This document shows positions 1-5,878 of a stretch of DNA of 5,943 nt, piece after piece. Numbering within the stretch: position 1 is the stretch's first letter; each line of letters begins with the position of its first letter. The position numbers were made by a program, and so were the translations under genes. The notes under the pieces were generated by a model. That model saw only the letters and a program-made list of their open reading frames with translations, did no database searches and was not told the DNA's origin. Origin of the DNA: a virus (Duplodnaviria > Heunggongvirae > Uroviricota > Caudoviricetes); IMG/VR virus record IMGVR_UViG_2713897140_000009, positions 1-5,943 of that record; one strand, written 5' to 3'.

Positions 1-20
1 GCCCTGGAAATACCCCACAG

Positions 21-58
21 CCCCGAAAAAGAGCCAGTCAGTTGCTTAACTGACTGGC
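21..58 (-). terminator. Rho-independent terminator-like hairpin
   Basis: Perfect 11-bp stem GCCAGTCAGTT/AACTGACTGGC (33-43/48-58) with loop GCTT; on the minus strand the stem is followed by TCTTTTTC (complement of 24-31). Confidence 0.4.
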
Positions 59-240
59 ATTAACCGTAAGGGTTGGTTTTTTCTTGGCACGAGAGTATTC
101 AAAACGCGCCAATAACTACTTGATTTAATTGAAGTCGAAAATTTTAAGTCAAAAATCGTATAGCTTAACGTGTAGCTAAAAATGTTTGCTGCAAAAGTAT
201 ACAATTTTAACCGTTATGACTCCCTGTTATCCGCTATCAA

Positions 241-408
241 GCTGGTGGATGATCACTGATAACTCGTATGGGAATCCCCATATCGGCATCATGCCCATGC
301 CATAACAAAAACCCCATATTCGTGGGTTTTCTGTGTTGTGGCTATTCTGCCGTTGCCGTGCTGGTGGATATTTCCGGTATGTGGCTCACCATATCGGCAT
401 CATGCCCA
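241..408. repeat. Imperfect ~120-bp tandem duplication: GCTGGTGGAT (241-250, 360-369) each followed by the 20-bp repeat CCATATCGGCATCATGCCCA (278-297, 389-408)
   Basis: Exact 20-bp direct repeat and exact 10-bp direct repeat read directly from the sequence; spacing between the 10-mer and 20-mer differs between copies (27 vs 19 nt). Confidence 0.6.
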
Positions 409-1066: not shown

Positions 1067-1451
1067 CTACCGCCGCAACCGTTCCGGCTTCTTCCACTGG
1101 TAAGTATTTTTCATGCTCTCCCTCCGTTGTTGAGAACGGCGACGGTATGCCAGCAACTCAAGGACTCTGGTTCGTATGTTGCGCATATCCACGCCGTTAA
1201 GCTCAATACCGTCACGGCGCATAACCTCAGCAACAACACGCGCATAGTTTTCGGCTGTCACGCTGTCCGGCTGCGTGGCCACCTGTTTGCCTGTTGCCTG
1301 ACTGATTCCGGTAATACGGCGGATTACTTTCAGTAGTTCGGCGTCGGTCATGGTTATGGTCTCCATAGTGATGGGGGAACAATTTCTGTAATCTGCGAAG
1401 CTGGCGATCGGTCAGACTCAAATGCCTGGCAACTTCAGTCTGAGTAGCCAC
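1067..1451 (-). CDS. Nu1-like (small terminase / Rpp-like) HTH protein, apparently frameshifted; would be 127 aa if the C5 run at 1373-1377 were C4
   Basis: GTG start at 1451 preceded by GAGGTG at a 5-6 nt spacing. N-terminus VATQTEVARHLSLTDRQLRRLQKL resembles the Nu1 winged-HTH (MEVNKKQLADIFGASIRTIQNWQ) and sits about 210 nt past cosN, as Nu1 does in lambda. That frame degenerates into low-complexity sequence after about 28 codons, while a protein-like reading frame (track ORF 1067..1366) continues in a different frame. A 1-nt change in the C5 homopolymer joins them. Confidence 0.5.
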
Positions 1452-1526: not shown

Positions 1527-1706
1527 TATATGTCCGGTTTGAGTGTTCAATTTTTGCGCATGTCCGGTTCACGGAAAGTGAATTTTTATATTTTTCAAAT
1601 AGTTAACTCCCAGAAAAACCGGACATGGTTTCCGAAAAATTTTCATAAATAGTGAAATTCTGCGCCGCTCCCGCCCCGTAACGGGTCCATATGCCGGAAA
1701 GGACCC
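1527..1706 (-). other. Lambda-type cos site: cosQ (1694-1706), cosN region (1662-1680), conserved cosN-proximal block (1633-1656), and three ATGTCCGGTT repeats in R-site positions (1530-1539, 1560-1569; inverted copy 1617-1626)
   Basis: Minus strand reads ACGGGTCCTTTCCGG-N14-ACGGGGCGGGAGCGGCGCAGAATTTCACTATTTATGAAAATTTTTCGG, against my recall of lambda ACGGGTCCTTTCCGG-N14-ACGGGGCGGCGACCTCGCGGGTTTTCGCTATTTATGAAAATTTTCCGG. cosQ and the cosQ-cosN spacing are identical; the 12-nt cohesive-end position reads GGGCGGGAGCGG versus lambda GGGCGGCGACCT. The three 10-bp repeats (two direct, one inverted, with an AT-rich spacer) occupy the place of lambda R3/R2/R1 but differ in sequence. Confidence 0.6.
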
Positions 1707-1708
1707 GT

Positions 1709-1731
1709 AAAAAAAGCCGGATTTCTCCGGC
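1709..1731 (-). terminator. Rho-independent terminator of the capsid cassette
   Basis: Minus strand GCCGGAGAAATCCGGC followed by TTTTTTT, starting 5 nt past the stop of the 137-aa ORF. Confidence 0.65.
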
Positions 1732-1736
1732 CTGTC

Positions 1737-2150
1737 TCAGATGGTTTTCAGTATGCGATCGATGTCGCCGTCATCGCCCGGGTTTCTGCCATCGTATGCC
1801 ATGCCAGCTGATACGGCTTTCGGGCTGTGTATGTCCATAAAGTTTTCAAAGGCTGCGGTAAGCTCTGGTGCAACCTTCTGGCGTTCCTGCTCTATGGTCA
1901 TGCTAAGAATGCTTTTAGCCGTACCAACATCGATACAAGGCACGTTTGCCATTGCACGTAACAGCGGCTGATAGTCGCCAGATTCATCAAGCGCCATAAT
2001 CGCATCAGCGCGCGGCTTGTCCTGCTCTTCCAGTTTGTTAAGTTGATATATGGCCTCGTAGGTTGATAACCCTCTGTCAGCCATTGCCCGCGCTTCGGCT
2101 TTAAATTTACTCGCCAGCGGTAGCGCCATGATGCTTTCATTCGTTGCCAT
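1737..2150 (-). CDS. Hypothetical 137-aa protein, last gene of the capsid cassette
   Basis: ATG at 2150 with AGGGGGAA 4-5 nt upstream, starting 13 nt after the gpD-like stop, followed by a terminator. Protein-like composition; I do not recognise the family. Its position and size are similar to lambda FI, but no sequence similarity is seen. Confidence 0.6.
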   Translation of the reverse strand: MATNESIMALPLASKFKAEARAMADRGLSTYEAIYQLNKLEEQDKPRADAIMALDESGDYQPLLRAMANVPCIDVGTAKSILSMTIEQERQKVAPELTAAFENFMDIHSPKAVSAGMAYDGRNPGDDGDIDRILKTI

Positions 2151-2162
2151 CGTTCCCCCTGC

Positions 2163-2498
2163 TTATCGGGCCAGCGGCTGAACGGATACGCCAGAACCCG
2201 TAAAGGCGGCGCATTTTTTCGCATCGGTGTCGACGCTCTCAGGCCAGTTAACGGCGGCAATATTGAATATCCCCGTCTTGTAACACTGTGCTGATTTCTG
2301 CTTTGACGTGTCCACGGGGTACGCCGTCAGATAAACAGCCTTGCCAGATTCCTGACCATCCCACGCCTTAAACTCGCCATTGTCCGCCAGCATCAGCGGG
2401 GTAAATTCCTGAATAACGCCAGCATCAGCGGCAAAATGTACCAGCGTCGTGGCGACCTGCTGACTGCCTGCAAATAACTCAACATATGGAGTGCCCAT
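2163..2498 (-). CDS. Head decoration protein, lambda gpD-like (111 aa)
   Basis: TPLMLADNGEFKAWDG, YKTGIFNIAAVNWPE and KKCAAFTGSGVSV align with lambda gpD TPLMLDTSSRKLVAWDG, YKSGTFRYEDVLWPE and KKRTAFAGTAISIV. Same length class; GGGAGA Shine-Dalgarno 6 nt upstream of the ATG. Confidence 0.85.
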   Translation of the reverse strand: MGTPYVELFAGSQQVATTLVHFAADAGVIQEFTPLMLADNGEFKAWDGQESGKAVYLTAYPVDTSKQKSAQCYKTGIFNIAAVNWPESVDTDAKKCAAFTGSGVSVQPLAR

Positions 2499-2509
2499 AG
2501 AATCTCCCG

Positions 2510-3565
2510 TTAACCAATTTTGACGGTAACAAATTTGCGAATATCTGCCGGAACCGGCTGCGGTGCGCTGTGCGTCTGCACGTACTCAATCGCCGGATCG
2601 CCGTCCTCAATCCAGTTTTTCGGGTAAAACATGTTTTGCGTTGCGCCCGTTCTTACTGCGTCCTGATCCATAATCGCACCATAGGCCACCAGCCCTTTAT
2701 TGTTGGTGTTGCCCAGGACAAGCAAATCAGGCTCAAGGAAATATTTTTCGGTGCCGTCGCTGTCGGCGTATTTGCCGGAATAGACGATAAGGGCAATATC
2801 GCCCAGATAGCCTTTAAAGCTCACCACTTCGCCCAGGTTTTTACACGCCAGCTCTGCGGCGGATTCTGAACCACGGGAAAGATCGTACAGCTCGCGGAAT
2901 TTTTTAAAGCTGCGTAACGTTCGCCATACCTCAGCGCCCATAATCATGACGTTGGCGGGGCAGCTGGCCTGTTCGGCGTATAGCTCGATGTCATCTGTCG
3001 GATCATGCGTCTCTTTATTCTGCTCAGACCATTTTTTTCCTGGCCCCTGATGGACAATGCAGTTTGCCGGCATATTCCAGTCGATTTCATAGCGTTCTAT
3101 GCCTTCGCCTTCAATGATGTTTTTTCCGGTCGTGACCGCATTCACTGCCAGCCATTCCACACGCGCTTTAATGGCGTTTATCTGGCGGCGCATGTTGCCA
3201 GTAATGAGGCGCATACGTCGCCAGGTGGGGTCGTTAAGCTGTGCCGGATCTTCTCCAGCCATGCGCATAATGGTTTTTGATGGATCGATTTCGTGCTTTG
3301 GCTTCATGTAGCCGGGGCGGATAGTGCTTGTTTCGTACCCTTTATCGCGCTGAACCTGGCTACCCACCATAGGCGAACAAAACGCCGACATGGTGACTTC
3401 TTCAATATCCAGGGTATCCAGCATGATGTCCTGCGTGTTGAAGGTCGCCACGTTCGGAAAAAACAGCGACGTAAACAGCGGACTGAATCTAAAATCCGGA
3501 ACATCCTGCCGATTCAGGTACGCGAAAAGCTGGTTAGTGTTAAGAGCCGTTGCTTTACCTGCCAT
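2510..3565 (-). CDS. Major capsid protein, lambda gpE-like (351 aa)
   Basis: Multiple co-linear blocks shared with lambda gpE: FRFSPLFTSLFF vs FKFDPLFLRLFF; PGYMKPKHEIDP vs PGYVKPKHEVNP; DPTDDIELYA vs DPTDDIEAYA; YPKNWIEDGDPA vs YPKNWVTTGDPA; similar length (351 vs 341 aa). Confidence 0.92.
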   Translation of the reverse strand: MAGKATALNTNQLFAYLNRQDVPDFRFSPLFTSLFFPNVATFNTQDIMLDTLDIEEVTMSAFCSPMVGSQVQRDKGYETSTIRPGYMKPKHEIDPSKTIMRMAGEDPAQLNDPTWRRMRLITGNMRRQINAIKARVEWLAVNAVTTGKNIIEGEGIERYEIDWNMPANCIVHQGPGKKWSEQNKETHDPTDDIELYAEQASCPANVMIMGAEVWRTLRSFKKFRELYDLSRGSESAAELACKNLGEVVSFKGYLGDIALIVYSGKYADSDGTEKYFLEPDLLVLGNTNNKGLVAYGAIMDQDAVRTGATQNMFYPKNWIEDGDPAIEYVQTHSAPQPVPADIRKFVTVKIG

Positions 3566-3771
3566 TATTCACCCCCGTGAACCTGATTCATGCCCAACGC
3601 CGCACGTAAATAGGCGCGCACCTGCCAGCCTGTTGACGGCTCAACCATTGCCAGCGGATCAAGTCCTGCCGCAATGCTCGCTTTTACGTTCTGCTGGTGG
3701 CGTTCCTTGAGTGCCTCCACGATGTCGGGGCTTATGTAGACTGTAACCCCACCTTTTTTCTCTTCTGCCAT
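3565..3771 (-). CDS. Small hypothetical protein (68 aa from the ATG at 3771; track ORF extends to 3804), translationally coupled to the capsid gene
   Basis: The ATG at 3771 has AAGAGGAA about 9 nt upstream, whereas the upstream ATG at 3804 has no Shine-Dalgarno. Its TAA stop overlaps the gpE-like ATG (TAATG). Family not recognised. Confidence 0.5.
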   Translation of the reverse strand: MAEEKKGGVTVYISPDIVEALKERHQQNVKASIAAGLDPLAMVEPSTGWQVRAYLRAALGMNQVHGGE

Positions 3772-3804
3772 AGTCAGAAATTCCTCTTTGACGTTAAAAA
3801 TCAT

Positions 3805-3855
3805 AACTGGATGTTCATCCAGTTATGATTATAATCATGATTTCATATTTCGCAA
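3805..3855 (-). promoter_or_regulatory. Candidate sigma70 promoter of the capsid cassette (-35 TTGCGA at 3850-3855, 16-nt spacer, -10 TATAAT at 3828-3833) overlapping two dyad operators
   Basis: A perfect TATAAT lies inside the perfect 14-bp palindrome ATGATTATAATCAT (3825-3838). Immediately downstream is the dyad AACTGGATG-N2-CATCCAGTT (3805-3824). Prediction by eye only. Confidence 0.35.
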
Positions 3856-3930
3856 TAATATCGATCCATGTTGCAAATTATGAAATGATTTCCGGAAACA
3901 GTAGTCACCATGCTGTTAACCTCATATATG

Positions 3931-4185: not shown

Positions 4186-4608
4186 TTAAAACGGTATGTT
4201 ATCCCCGTACGGATCATCATTTCCCGCCTGTTGTTTTGCTCTGCTCAGTGCATCAGCAGCCTGCCCCTGTTGGCCTTTTTTGCCGCCCGGTCGCGCCGTT
4301 CTCGCACTGATTACGCTGTCTGCGATAACCTGCCAGCCCTGCCGCATTTCCCCGTTCTGTCCGGTCCACTGGCTCACCTGCATGTTACCCGCCACGCTCA
4401 GGGGTTCACCCTTGCGGTGCTTTGCCAGTGCTTCGGCCTGTCTGCCAAACGCCAGGACGGATAACCACATCGTCGCCGTTCCGTCATCGGCCTGGCTGCA
4501 CGGCAGGGGAACCGCCATACTCGCCATCGCCATTTGTGTCCCTTTGCTGGTGGTCTTTAACTGCGGGTCAGCCACCAGCCGCCCGTAAGCTGCTATCTGT
4601 GCTGTCAT
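4186..4608 (-). CDS. ssb: Single-stranded DNA-binding protein (SSB-like, 140 aa) with a C-terminal acidic IPF tail
   Basis: FGRQAEALAKHRKGEPLSVAGNMQVSQWTGQNGEMRQGWQVIA aligns with E. coli SSB [43 protein letters not shown]. Gly/Gln-rich linker and C-terminal DDPYGDNIPF (E. coli DDDIPF). Its ATG overlaps the upstream stop (ATGA). Confidence 0.75.
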   Translation of the reverse strand: MTAQIAAYGRLVADPQLKTTSKGTQMAMASMAVPLPCSQADDGTATMWLSVLAFGRQAEALAKHRKGEPLSVAGNMQVSQWTGQNGEMRQGWQVIADSVISARTARPGGKKGQQGQAADALSRAKQQAGNDDPYGDNIPF

Positions 4609-4862
4609 GCTGTCTGCTCTCCGGTTTTAACGTTGATGGTTGTCACCTGTTCCGCTTCGGCAATCTCCCGTTCTGTCAGCGTGGCAAAGTTTGCTGCCGC
4701 CGTGGTCATGAATGCGCTTATCAGTTCAGGATGTGCTTTCGCGTATCCTTCTCCCGCGTTGCGGTCGATGATTTTTATCGCCACCCTCAGCCAGTGCTCT
4801 GTAAGGTCAATGGCGCGGTTATGTTGCTTCTTCTGATTGTTAAGTTTTCCTGATGTGTGCAT
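4605..4862 (-). CDS. Hypothetical 85-aa protein between the origin and the SSB gene
   Basis: ATG at 4862 with GAGGGGGG about 11 nt upstream; stop overlaps the SSB start (ATGA), suggesting translational coupling. Family not recognised. Confidence 0.5.
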   Translation of the reverse strand: MHTSGKLNNQKKQHNRAIDLTEHWLRVAIKIIDRNAGEGYAKAHPELISAFMTTAAANFATLTEREIAEAEQVTTINVKTGEQTA

Positions 4863-4911
4863 TTTTGTTTTTACCCCCCTCGTTTAAAAAGTTTTGGAGA
4901 TACCCCCACCT

Positions 4912-5138
4912 TGTCTACCTTATCTACCTGGTGGATGCTCAGGCCAGTAATGACGCGGGTTTTATGGTGGTAGACAGTAAAAAATCTCTGTCTACCTGAT
5001 GTCTACCCATCCCTCCGACTGGCTACAAAAACAGGTAGACAAGGTAGACAGCTTGTAGACAGTAAAAAAAAGCTGTCTACCTAAATTAATACACTGAATT
5101 AAAACAACTTTTATGTAATCAGGTAGACAAGGTAGACA
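4912..5138. repeat. Iteron-type replication origin: 11 copies of the 8-bp iteron GGTAGACA/TGTCTACC in both orientations, interspersed with A-tracts
   Basis: TGTCTACC at 4912, 4989, 5000, 5074 and a variant at 4921; GGTAGACA at 4969, 5034, 5043, 5122, 5131 and a variant at 5055. Tandem pairs have a 9-bp period. AGGTAGACAAGGTAGACAG occurs twice (5032-5050, 5120-5138). A-rich tracts at 4976-4984 and 5062-5070 could act as an unwinding element. Lies directly downstream of the rep ORF. Confidence 0.65.
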
Positions 5139-5152
5139 GCAATTGCCAAAAA

Positions 5153-5878
5153 TTATAAAAACGCGTCGCAATCGTCGGTTGTTATTGCGTTAGTCTGCGT
5201 CACTCCATTAATTTTTCGCGTAATATATTCATGTCCGTAAACTTTTGCGGCTGGCTTCATGGCCTTGCCAAAGTCATTTACGTTTAGTGGTTTGGTTCTG
5301 CCTGCGTATGCCATAAACGCCAGATAGACGCGGTAAAGGCTGTTTCTGGTCGTGTACTTCACGGAATCGCCACCGCCACCCATCATCAGGCCACGTGCTT
5401 CCTCCAGAAAATTCAGGAACTGGCAAAACTCAATAACCGGATCCGTTTGCTGCTTTATCGCCAGTGCTTCATCACCGTCACGCTGTTCCAGTAGTAAAGC
5501 CCGCGCCTTTTCAGGGTCTGCAAAGTTCGCCAGTAATCGGCGGATAATGACGGGGATTTCAGCCGCAATCTTTTCCGGTAGTTCCCTGTCTTTTTCGGCC
5601 TCGTTGACGATATTGTCGAAACGGAAAATCACGCGACGACGTGCCACGCCTCCGGCCCGTTCGGTGAATATCATCGGATTGTTATTGGTTGCCAGCACCA
5701 CCGCCCTGATTACCGCCGTAAAACGCTTTTCATATTTCGGGTTAATTTCCACGGGGTCGCCGCCCGTGATTTTCTTGATGCCCGTTCCTTCGCCTGTATA
5801 TTTCGGCTGGTCTGCCAGGACGATAAGACGACTCCCGACAACCTGTGCACGCCCACCAGCATCATCAAGCGATGTCAT
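5153..5878 (-). CDS. Replication protein resembling the C-terminal region of P4-family (D5-like) primase/SF3 helicases; no Walker A in this ORF
   Basis: GSRLIVLADQ (Walker-B-like region), KKITGGDPV, VVLATNNNP (SF3 motif-C-like TNNxP), RRRVIFRFDN and ELPEKIAAEIPVII match the conserved post-Walker-A pattern of P4 alpha-type proteins as I recall it. No GxxxxGK[ST] motif is present. The ATG overlaps the stop of the upstream ORF (ATGA). Confidence 0.6.
   Translation of the reverse strand: MTSLDDAGGRAQVVGSRLIVLADQPKYTGEGTGIKKITGGDPVEINPKYEKRFTAVIRAVVLATNNNPMIFTERAGGVARRRVIFRFDNIVNEAEKDRELPEKIAAEIPVIIRRLLANFADPEKARALLLEQRDGDEALAIKQQTDPVIEFCQFLNFLEEARGLMMGGGGDSVKYTTRNSLYRVYLAFMAYAGRTKPLNVNDFGKAMKPAAKVYGHEYITRKINGVTQTNAITTDDCDAFL

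What the first reader, a model, noticed from the sequence alone, without database searches (positions are those of the whole stretch)
1737..3855. Self-contained lambda gpE/gpD-type capsid cassette inside a satellite-like replicon
A gpE-like major capsid gene and a gpD-like decoration gene, bracketed by two small unidentified ORFs, form one tightly coupled operon (TAATG overlap, 11-13 nt intergenic gaps) with its own candidate promoter and operators and its own terminator. The neighbours are an iteron origin, SSB, P4-family helicase-C ORF, a cos site and a Nu1-like ORF, with no portal, protease, scaffold, large terminase or tail genes in the window. The satellite families I know either remodel helper capsids without a major capsid gene (P4, classical PICIs) or carry HK97-type capsid genes together with terminase and portal (capsid-forming PICIs); a minimal lambda E+D cassette does not fit either. 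It could let the element build or resize capsids from helper portal/scaffold/tail parts, or poison helper capsid assembly.
Basis: partly seen in the sequence, partly recalled or inferred. Interest (0 to 1): 0.85.

Follow-up and report, generated by a model that had tools for sequence, protein, structure and literature searches.

The report
Known PICI capsid-gene module, decayed copy
This is the already described four-gene "capsid" block (c1498-c1501) of an EcCICFT073-type phage-inducible chromosomal island of E. coli, present in about one in nine complete E. coli genomes; what the block does for the island is still unknown.

Summary
On the minus strand, 1737-3855 carries one compact unit: a promoter-like site with a palindrome, a 68-aa ORF, a lambda E-type major capsid gene, a lambda D-type decoration gene, a 137-aa ORF and a terminator. 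The claim that it fits no known satellite does not hold. The block is 93% identical in DNA to c1498-c1501 of EcCICFT073, the model Gram-negative cos-type PICI. There c1499 (capsid; crystal structure 3BQW) and c1500 (decoration) were named in 2018. They were deleted without effect on lambda interference or on transfer. The whole block was later replaced by cargo, and the island was still transferred by phage 80. The two cos sites that flank the block are also published. The whole block occurs in 594 of 5426 complete E. coli genomes. This copy sits in a decayed island with a split integrase, a split primase and a deleted Rpp/TerS gene. New here: the 137-aa protein is homologous to the C-terminal half of Nu3-type scaffolds; the island's capsid and decoration proteins form a satellite lineage far from all phage homologues; the capsid gene is under purifying selection; and both 2018 marked islands were marked inside the block. 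Function remains open.

The parts
3828..3855 (-). Promoter-like site of the block: -35 TTGCGA, 16-nt spacer, -10 TATAAT
   Evidence: 10 of 12 matches. The -10 is invariant and the -35 is TTGCxx in five E. coli islands. The site count in the region is not above chance.
3799..3830 (.). Perfect inverted repeat (15-nt arms, 2-nt spacer) running from the -10 into the leader; candidate operator with core CTGGAT-N4-ATCCAG at 3807-3822
   Evidence: I8, 100% complementary. It is the only copy in the island. The core is conserved in five E. coli islands but absent in L010 and L011.
3565..3771 (-). 68-aa ORF, homologue of EcCICFT073 c1498; function unknown; its stop overlaps the capsid gene start (TAATG)
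2510..3565 (-). 351-aa major capsid protein of the lambda gpE family; homologue of EcCICFT073 c1499
   Evidence: PF03864, E 9e-50. PDB 3BQW, E 3.8e-219. 43% identical to lambda gpE. dN/dS 0.13-0.18.
2163..2498 (-). 111-aa head decoration protein of the lambda gpD / phage 21 SHP family; homologue of c1500
   Evidence: PF02924, E 2.9e-17. 1TD0, E 1.4e-13. Lambda gpD, 37% over 76 residues.
1737..2150 (-). 137-aa protein, homologue of c1501; residues about 25-120 are homologous to the C-terminal half of Nu3-type scaffold proteins
   Evidence: phrog_53 positions 494-567 of 583, E 2.1e-8. tblastn to phage 21-type Nu3, 35-37% identity. Bridge protein P0041. hhalign probability 96.4%, E 1e-9. c1501 is listed as 137 aa. 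The AF2 model is all-helical with a disordered tail.
1714..1733 (-). Intrinsic-terminator-like hairpin with T-run directly after the last stop codon; the T-run runs into cos1
   Evidence: 8-pair stem, 5 G-C pairs.
1632..1713 (-). cos1-type site downstream of the block, with lambda-like cosQ and cosN-region sequence (TTTACGGGTCCTTTCCGG ... GTTACGGGGCGGG) and the lambda-like stretch CTATTTATGAAAATTTT
   Evidence: Alignment with the lambda cos junction. EcCICFT073 cos1 and cos2 are described in PMC6739421.
4100..4152 (-). cos2-type partial copy (cosQ and cosN-like only) upstream of the block, just after the SSB terminator
   Evidence: alignment; family D8; PMC6739421.
3928..3976 (.). Conserved hairpin (AAAAAGCCCG...CGGGCTTTTT) between cos2 and the promoter; with the SSB terminator it insulates the block from upstream transcription
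   Evidence: I5. Conserved in five islands.

Best explanation
Identity (shown). The region is the c1498-c1501 block of an EcCICFT073-type Gram-negative cos-type phage-inducible chromosomal island (PICI). This copy lies in a decayed island. The block is one transcription unit set between the island's two cos sites. It encodes a 68-aa protein of unknown role, a lambda E-type major capsid protein, a lambda D-type decoration protein, and a 137-aa protein that keeps the C-terminal half of a Nu3-type scaffold.

Mechanism (inferred; I give it about 0.35-0.4). The three recognisable products are a satellite-specific shell set. During a lambdoid helper's late phase they would assemble into, or co-assemble with, helper shells around the helper's portal and protease. 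The resulting heads would be filled by the helper terminase, redirected by Rpp. They would then be stabilised by the island's own decoration protein, and joined to helper tails.

This contribution is auxiliary. With lambda, phage 80 and the CFT073 helper prophage in the laboratory, the block is dispensable for transfer and for interference.
For: Identity:
- 93.1% DNA identity over the full 2.1 kb to CFT073.
- The capsid protein matches PDB 3BQW at E 3.8e-219. The 3BQW sequence equals the CFT073 protein over the residues shown.
- c1498 is 68 aa and c1501 is 137 aa in the 2018 supplement. c1499 and c1500 are named capsid and decoration there.
- The same four genes sit in the same order in islands with different integrases, att sites and replication modules.
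- PICI context: int, AlpA (PF05930), D5-type primase, iterons after the primase gene, SSB and two cos sites.

Evidence that the genes are kept for a function:
- All four genes are intact and of equal length in five islands.
- Capsid gene dN/dS is 0.13-0.18 at dS 0.15-0.32.
- The full block is present in 594 of 5426 complete genomes.

Satellite lineage:
- PICI capsid proteins from E. coli, a metagenomic contig and Edwardsiella are 62-97% identical to each other.
- They are 42-47% identical to lambda, phage 21, Gifsy-1 and the Edwardsiella island's own embedding helper.
- Decoration proteins show the same split, 51-95% against 29-36%.
- No phage record among the 408 with a match reaches 60% identity; the best is 45.6%.

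Scaffold link: hhalign probability 96.4%, E 1e-9, over 94 columns against a Nu3 alignment.

Inference from lambda biology (my own knowledge, not a tool result). gpD binds only expanded shells and is needed only for capsids holding near full-length DNA. Keeping a cognate decoration protein and a scaffold-like protein therefore points to productive, DNA-filled shells rather than a poison.
Against: - No phenotype has been found for the block. [quoted passage not shown]
- Islands with c1498-c1501 replaced by cas9 or melA are still transferred by phage 80 (PMC10530653 and PMC10460865).
- No tool result or paper I read shows these proteins in particles.
- The Nu3 link covers only half of Nu3 and rests on sequence profiles. 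The fold search found nothing.
- The Edwardsiella island has the capsid and decoration genes but no 137-aa gene.
- The 68-aa protein has no assignable function.
- In this particular island int and primase are split by IS elements and the Rpp/TerS gene is deleted. Here the block is probably a remnant with no current role.
Confidence: 0.8

Rival explanations
1. Capsid size or shape redirection. The island's capsid protein would act like SaPIbov5 Ccm. The truncated Nu3-like protein would act like SaPI1 CpmB, an alternative internal scaffold that shares the coat-binding end of the helper scaffold. Together they would make small island-sized heads with natural helpers.
For: - The 137-aa protein keeps only the C-terminal half of a Nu3-type scaffold.
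- A related Pasteurella PICI with a capsid homologue makes small capsids (PMC6092414; PMC6893505).
- The 2018 'phage-sized DNA only' result and the deletion tests used islands marked inside the block, c1501::tetA and c1499::cat.
Against: - Packaged DNA was phage-sized with lambda.
- Synthetic islands are designed to keep their size an exact fraction of the helper genome.
- No small particles are reported for E. coli islands of this type in the papers I read.
Confidence: 0.15
2. Interference. The products would poison or mis-assemble capsids of lambdoid phages, either helpers or competitors, and so protect the host or favour the island.
For: - Capsid-directed interference is common in satellites (PMC6893505).
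- The island's capsid protein is close enough to gpE (43% identity) that co-assembly is conceivable.
Against: - Deleting c1499 or c1500 did not relieve interference with lambda.
- Of the genes after the origin, each expressed alone, only c1503 (RppA) reduced lambda plaques.
- A poison would not need a cognate decoration protein (inference).
- None of the four block proteins matches a PADLOC defence model.
Confidence: 0.12
3. Backup copy. The block would replace helper E and D functions for islands that integrate inside helper late genes (helper-embedded PICIs).
For: - Helper-embedded PICIs most often sit in gene E and carry their own E homologue (PMC10111431).
- L011 is such an island, inserted in a portal gene, with its capsid and decoration genes directly upstream of the helper's own.
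Against: - Most copies, including this one and those of CFT073, IHE3034, O157 and 042, sit in chromosomal sites away from prophages.
- Island and helper proteins are only 42-47% identical.
- The interrupted helper gene is restored on excision.
Confidence: 0.05
4. Remnant of a defective lambdoid prophage, or a new kind of satellite.
For: The genes are lambda-type head genes, and this island is visibly decayed.
Against: - The flanks hold a complete PICI gene set and no other head or tail genes.
- The block is conserved at 90-93% identity in 594 genomes.
- It is under purifying selection.
- It has been described in print since 2018.
Confidence: 0.02

Closest known systems
EcCICFT073 (E. coli CFT073), genes c1498-c1501, with cos1, cos2 and RppA (Fillol-Salom et al. 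2018, 2019)
   Same: - The same four genes in the same order and of the same lengths, 93% DNA identity.
- The same promoter region and palindrome.
- Two cos sites bracketing the block.
- The same island architecture: int, alpA, primase, ori, ssb.
   Different: - This island is at tRNA-Pro/yejM rather than phoQ-roxA.
- It lacks the PerC-family gene between ssb and the block.
- Its integrase is split by IS21 and its primase by an IS110-family element.
- It has lost its Rpp/TerS gene except for 24 codons.
Lambda head genes Nu3, D and E (also phage 21 gp6, SHP and gp7)
   Same: Homologous capsid, decoration and scaffold C-terminal domains.
   Different: - The gene order is E, D, Nu3-like rather than Nu3, D, E.
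- The Nu3-like protein is free-standing and 137 aa long. It is not nested in a protease gene, and it has a different N-terminal part.
- Identity is only 43% for E and about 30-37% for D.
- There are no portal, protease, W, FI, FII or terminase A genes.
SaPIbov5 Ccm and SaPI1 CpmB (Gram-positive PICI capsid redirection)
   Same: - A classical, cos-packaged satellite that carries a homologue of the helper's capsid protein, as with Ccm.
- A short protein sharing the helper scaffold's C-terminal part, as with CpmB (CpmB from my own knowledge of Dearborn et al. 2017, which is listed).
   Different: - No size redirection has been seen for the E. coli island.
- A decoration protein is present here and not in the SaPIs.
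- No sequence relationship to Ccm or CpmB was tested.
Capsid-forming PICIs (cf-PICIs, e.g. EcCIEDL933)
   Same: A PICI backbone that carries its own capsid gene. The satellite capsid proteins form clades apart from phage homologues.
   Different: cf-PICIs encode portal, protease, head-tail connectors, HNH and both terminase subunits, and they make their own small capsids. None of those genes is present here.

Membership tests
Gram-negative classical (cos) PICI, EcCICFT073 type | Island of about 10-15 kb with a tyrosine integrase at one end and a specific chromosomal att site | tested here: met
   In the 99.9% identical genome the island runs from just after the yejO pseudogene to tRNA-Pro/yejM. 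Integrase fragments (PF00589, PF13356, PF22022) are split by IS21. I did not find the att direct repeat.
Gram-negative classical (cos) PICI, EcCICFT073 type | AlpA-family regulator next to int | tested here: met
   L001 25665-25871 matches PF05930 Phage_AlpA, E 7.9e-8.
Gram-negative classical (cos) PICI, EcCICFT073 type | Its own primase/replicase gene followed by an iteron origin | tested here: met
   D5_N and Pox_D5 domains, with the gene split by an IS110-family element. GGTAGACA iterons lie at 4908-5144, directly downstream.
Gram-negative classical (cos) PICI, EcCICFT073 type | Helper-type cos site(s) and an Rpp or TerS-like gene | tested here: inconclusive
   Two cos-like sites align with the lambda cosQ and cosN region. 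The Rpp/TerS gene is reduced to 24 codons, whereas CFT073 RppA matches RppC 6HLK.
Gram-negative classical (cos) PICI, EcCICFT073 type | No portal, protease, large terminase, tail or lysis genes | tested here: met
Gram-negative classical (cos) PICI, EcCICFT073 type | Induction, packaging and transfer by a helper phage | not testable with these tools
   Shown experimentally for EcCICFT073 (PMC6092414). This copy is probably immobile.
Lambda gpE major capsid family (PF03864) | Full-length match to the family profile and to solved gpE | tested here: met
   PF03864, 170 bits against a cut-off of 22.9. 7VI9, E 1.1e-82.
Lambda gpD / SHP decoration family (PF02924) | Match above the curated cut-off | tested here: met
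   63.3 bits against a cut-off of 29.1. 1TD0 and 1C5E also match.
Nu3-type scaffold | Homology over the scaffold, and a gene nested in frame in the 3' part of the S49 protease gene | tested here: not met
   Only the C-terminal half aligns (hhalign 96.4%; query 25-120 against template 91-186 of 203). The gene stands alone and the island has no protease gene. I therefore file it as Nu3-related, not as a Nu3 orthologue.
Capsid-forming PICI (cf-PICI) | Portal, protease, head-tail connectors and terminase encoded by the island | tested here: not met
   None is present in the window or the flanks.
P4-like satellite | sid, psu and delta capsid-remodelling genes | tested here: not met
   No such products are annotated in the island and none of the window proteins scanned matches them. 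Only the D5/P4-alpha-type primase is shared.

The most novel reading that the evidence does not exclude
The four genes would be a complete satellite-specific shell kit: capsid protein, its own decoration protein, a truncated Nu3-like internal scaffold, and a small translationally coupled protein. With natural lambdoid helpers the kit would build island-specific heads, possibly smaller than T=7, on helper portals.

This could have been missed because the two marked islands of the 2018 study carry their marker inside the kit (c1501::tetA and c1499::cat). The later cargo replacements tested only whether phage 80 can still transfer the island.
Probability: 0.15. Interest if true: 0.7.

Novelty: already known. 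Interest (0 to 1): 0.25.

Why it matters
As a finding it is ordinary: a well-described gene block of a well-described satellite family, here in a decayed copy.

The open point is why roughly a tenth of complete E. coli genomes keep a satellite-lineage capsid, decoration and scaffold-like set under purifying selection. Every laboratory test so far finds it dispensable.

If the block does build or modify heads with natural helpers, these islands would sit between classical PICIs, which take everything from the helper, and capsid-forming PICIs, which take only tails. That would bear on how cf-PICIs arose.

It also matters in practice. c1498-c1501 is the slot now used for cargo in engineered PICI delivery vehicles.

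Tried and rejected
- The 68-aa protein against lambda gpW, and the 137-aa protein against lambda FI: no similarity.
- The 137-aa protein. An exhaustive HMMER search found only 10 proteins at E up to 0.001, so the family is very narrow. A Foldseek search of the model against viral predicted structures gave nothing. The Nu3 link rests on sequence profiles only.
- A LexA-box reading of the palindrome core (CTG-N10-CAG). The core is conserved in five E. coli islands but absent in the two more distant islands. I did not score it with a matrix, so it remains a lead.
- A search for the promoter and operator region in phage records gave only short chance matches.
- A defence-system reading found no PADLOC matches.
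- Rfam and tRNA scans of the window found nothing.
- The att repeat of the island was not found by exact 12-mers.
- An alignment of the window's Nu1-like region with IHE3034 TerS and CFT073 RppA showed no real homology beyond the first codons. The region is a deletion junction.
- I first took the O157 island at phoQ-roxA for EcCIEDL933. The cf-PICI paper shows that EcCIEDL933 is a different, capsid-forming element, so I do not use that name.
Full report
**What is there**

Read on the minus strand, the window holds, in order:
- the C-terminal part of a D5/P4-alpha-type primase (5153-5878);
- a field of GGTAGACA iterons (4908-5144);
- an 85-aa ORF;
- an SSB gene (4186-4608) with its terminator.

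The reported block follows.
- A promoter-like site lies at 3855-3828 (TTGCGA, 16 nt, TATAAT). A perfect 15-bp-arm palindrome at 3799-3830 starts at its -10.
- Four tightly packed ORFs come next: 3565-3771, 2510-3565, 2163-2498 and 1737-2150. They are joined by a TAATG overlap and gaps of 11 and 12 nt.
- A hairpin and T-run lie at 1733-1714.
- The longest-ORF reading of the first gene (79 aa) is not conserved. In four related islands the extension meets a stop codon, while the ATG at 3771 with its AAGAGGA site is invariant. RefSeq also aa.

The 351-aa protein matches Pfam Phage_cap_E (E 9e-50). It is 43% identical to lambda gpE end to end. The 111-aa protein matches Pfam HDPD (E 2.9e-17), phage 21 SHP (E 1.4e-13) and lambda gpD (E 1.3e-9).

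**The element is a known satellite**

A 99.9% identical copy in E. coli O121 strain 201805972 lets the flanks be read. Next to tRNA-Pro and yejM lies an integrase split by IS21. Then come an AlpA-family regulator (PF05930), Icd-like and DUF4222 genes, the primase split by an IS110-family element, the origin and SSB. The four-gene block follows, then a 24-codon stub of a Nu1/TerS-like gene and a 94-aa gene. No portal, protease, large terminase, tail or lysis gene is present. That is the architecture of Gram-negative PICIs.

The block alone is found at full length and 90-93% identity in 594 of 5426 complete E. coli genomes. These include CFT073 (93.1%), Nissle, 042 and O157:H7. It sits in islands with different integrases, att sites and replication genes: a primase in CFT073 and IHE3034, and a RepA-type helicase in O157 and 042.

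**It is already in print**

- The 2018 description of EcCICFT073 names c1499 a capsid protein and c1500 a head decoration protein. It deletes each, and finds no change in lambda interference or in transfer (PMC6092414).
- Its supplement lists c1498 as 68 aa and c1501 as 137 aa. The CFT073 68-aa protein is AAN79967.1, one accession below c1499.
- The capsid protein's crystal structure is in the PDB as 3BQW.
[quoted passage not shown] Both are in the window and they bracket the block. Each aligns with the lambda cosQ and cosN region, and only the one next to the Rpp position has a lambda-like continuation.
- A 2023 survey notes a major capsid gene in 21 of 29 reference Gram-negative PICIs (PMC10111431).
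- Dokland's 2019 review comments that EcCICFT073 has a capsid homologue yet is packaged in full-size heads (PMC6893505).
- Engineered islands replace c1498-c1501 wholesale with cas9 or melA, calling it the adaptable module, and are still transferred by phage 80.

The statement that the cassette 'does not fit' known satellites is therefore wrong. The finding is already known.

**What I can add**

(a) The 137-aa protein is related to Nu3-type scaffolds.
- PHROGs place residues 45-119 on the C-terminal end of the protease/scaffold family (E 2.1e-8).
- tblastn finds phage 21-type Nu3 at 35-37% identity.
- An exhaustive HMMER search finds a 195-aa protein (E 8.1e-6) that is itself a clear Nu3 relative (E 2e-16 against lambda Nu3).
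- Profile-profile comparison gives 96.4% probability, E 1e-9, over 94 columns covering Nu3 positions 91-186 of 203.
- The predicted structure is helical with a disordered tail. The last residues (RILKTI) are invariant across the family alignment, which includes a 41%-identical relative.
- It is free-standing, and the island has no protease gene. It fails the full Nu3 definition, and I call it Nu3-related.

(b) The island's capsid and decoration proteins are a lineage of their own.
- Among islands from E. coli, a metagenomic contig (L010) and Edwardsiella tarda (L011), capsid proteins are 62-97% identical and decoration proteins 51-95%.
- Against lambda, phage 21, Gifsy-1 and the helper prophage in which the Edwardsiella island is embedded, the figures are 42-47% and 29-36%.
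- No phage record among the 408 with a match exceeds 45.6% identity.

(c) Selection. All four genes are intact and of equal length in five islands. The capsid gene has dN/dS of 0.13-0.18. The other three genes have too few changes for a firm value.

(d) A caveat on the published negatives. The two marked islands of the 2018 study carry their marker inside the block (c1501::tetA, c1499::cat). The deletion tests and the 'phage-sized DNA' result were thus not done on an intact block. The later whole-block replacements show that the block is not needed for transfer by phage 80. They do not show that it does nothing.

**How it most likely works**

Shown: the block is an insulated unit. Terminator-like hairpins lie on both sides, and it has its own strong-looking promoter with a dedicated palindrome found nowhere else in the island.

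Inferred: its three recognisable products are the shell set of a lambda-type head, namely scaffold part, capsid protein and decoration protein. In lambda, gpD binds only expanded shells and matters only for capsids holding near full-length DNA (my own knowledge). Long-term retention of a cognate decoration protein and a scaffold-like protein fits productive, DNA-filled shells better than a poison. I therefore favour assembly or co-assembly into heads on helper portals as an auxiliary function, at roughly 0.35-0.4. The rivals are size redirection (0.15), interference (0.12), a backup copy for helper-embedded islands (0.05), and a prophage remnant or new kind of satellite (0.02).

**This particular copy**

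Its integrase and primase are split by IS elements, and its Rpp/TerS gene is deleted. The deletion fused cos1 and 24 codons to the downstream 94-aa gene. The island is probably immobile, and the block's intactness here says little by itself.

**Verdict**

Novelty: already known. Interest is low. One residual question is open and directly testable.

Noticed in passing
window 3807-3822 (within the palindrome 3799-3830): The palindrome core CTGGAT-N4-ATCCAG has the CTG-N10-CAG spacing of LexA boxes and, from memory, resembles the ruvAB and cho boxes. An SOS-controlled capsid operon would parallel the LexA-controlled operon I of SaPIs. The core is conserved in five E. coli islands but absent in L010 and in the Edwardsiella island L011.
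   Followed up: partly
window 3850-3880, minus strand; L011 8880-8945; L010 160-200: A TTGCA-N5/6-TGCAA dyad lies over the -35 region, with a second TTGCAA block about 35 nt upstream. It is kept from E. coli to Edwardsiella, further than the palindrome. It may be a second regulator site.
   Followed up: no
window 4862-5153: The origin region has one more iteron unit of about 85 nt than the otherwise 99.9% identical copy in NZ_CP119441, so iteron copy number varies.
   Followed up: partly
window 1380-1451 and 1067-1351: Only the first 24 codons of a Nu1/TerS-like gene remain. They sit just upstream of a 94-aa gene (phrog_1561) that lies further downstream in intact islands. This island has therefore lost its Rpp/TerS.
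   Followed up: yes
L011 1-18213 (Edwardsiella tarda, GCA_053360915.1): A helper-embedded PICI splits the portal gene of a lambdoid prophage. It carries a 70-aa ORF, a capsid gene and a decoration gene, but no 137-aa gene, directly upstream of the helper's own portal remainder, protease, D and E genes.
   Followed up: partly
proteins P0027 and P0031 (relatives of window 1737-2150): Natural 93-aa variants of the Nu3-like protein lack residues 21-64 in frame and keep the N-terminal 20 residues and the Nu3-like part.
   Followed up: no
window 1-79: The first 79 bases match none of the closest complete genomes, whose matches start at base 80, and a 9-nt indel follows. The window may therefore come from a strain with a different left junction.
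   Followed up: no
window 266-297 / 377-408 and 627-646 / 743-762: Two pairs of direct repeats (32 nt at 88% identity, 20 nt at 95%) lie in the roughly 1-kb stretch at the island's end. That stretch carries no annotated gene in the 99.9% identical RefSeq genome, and its role is unknown.
   Followed up: no
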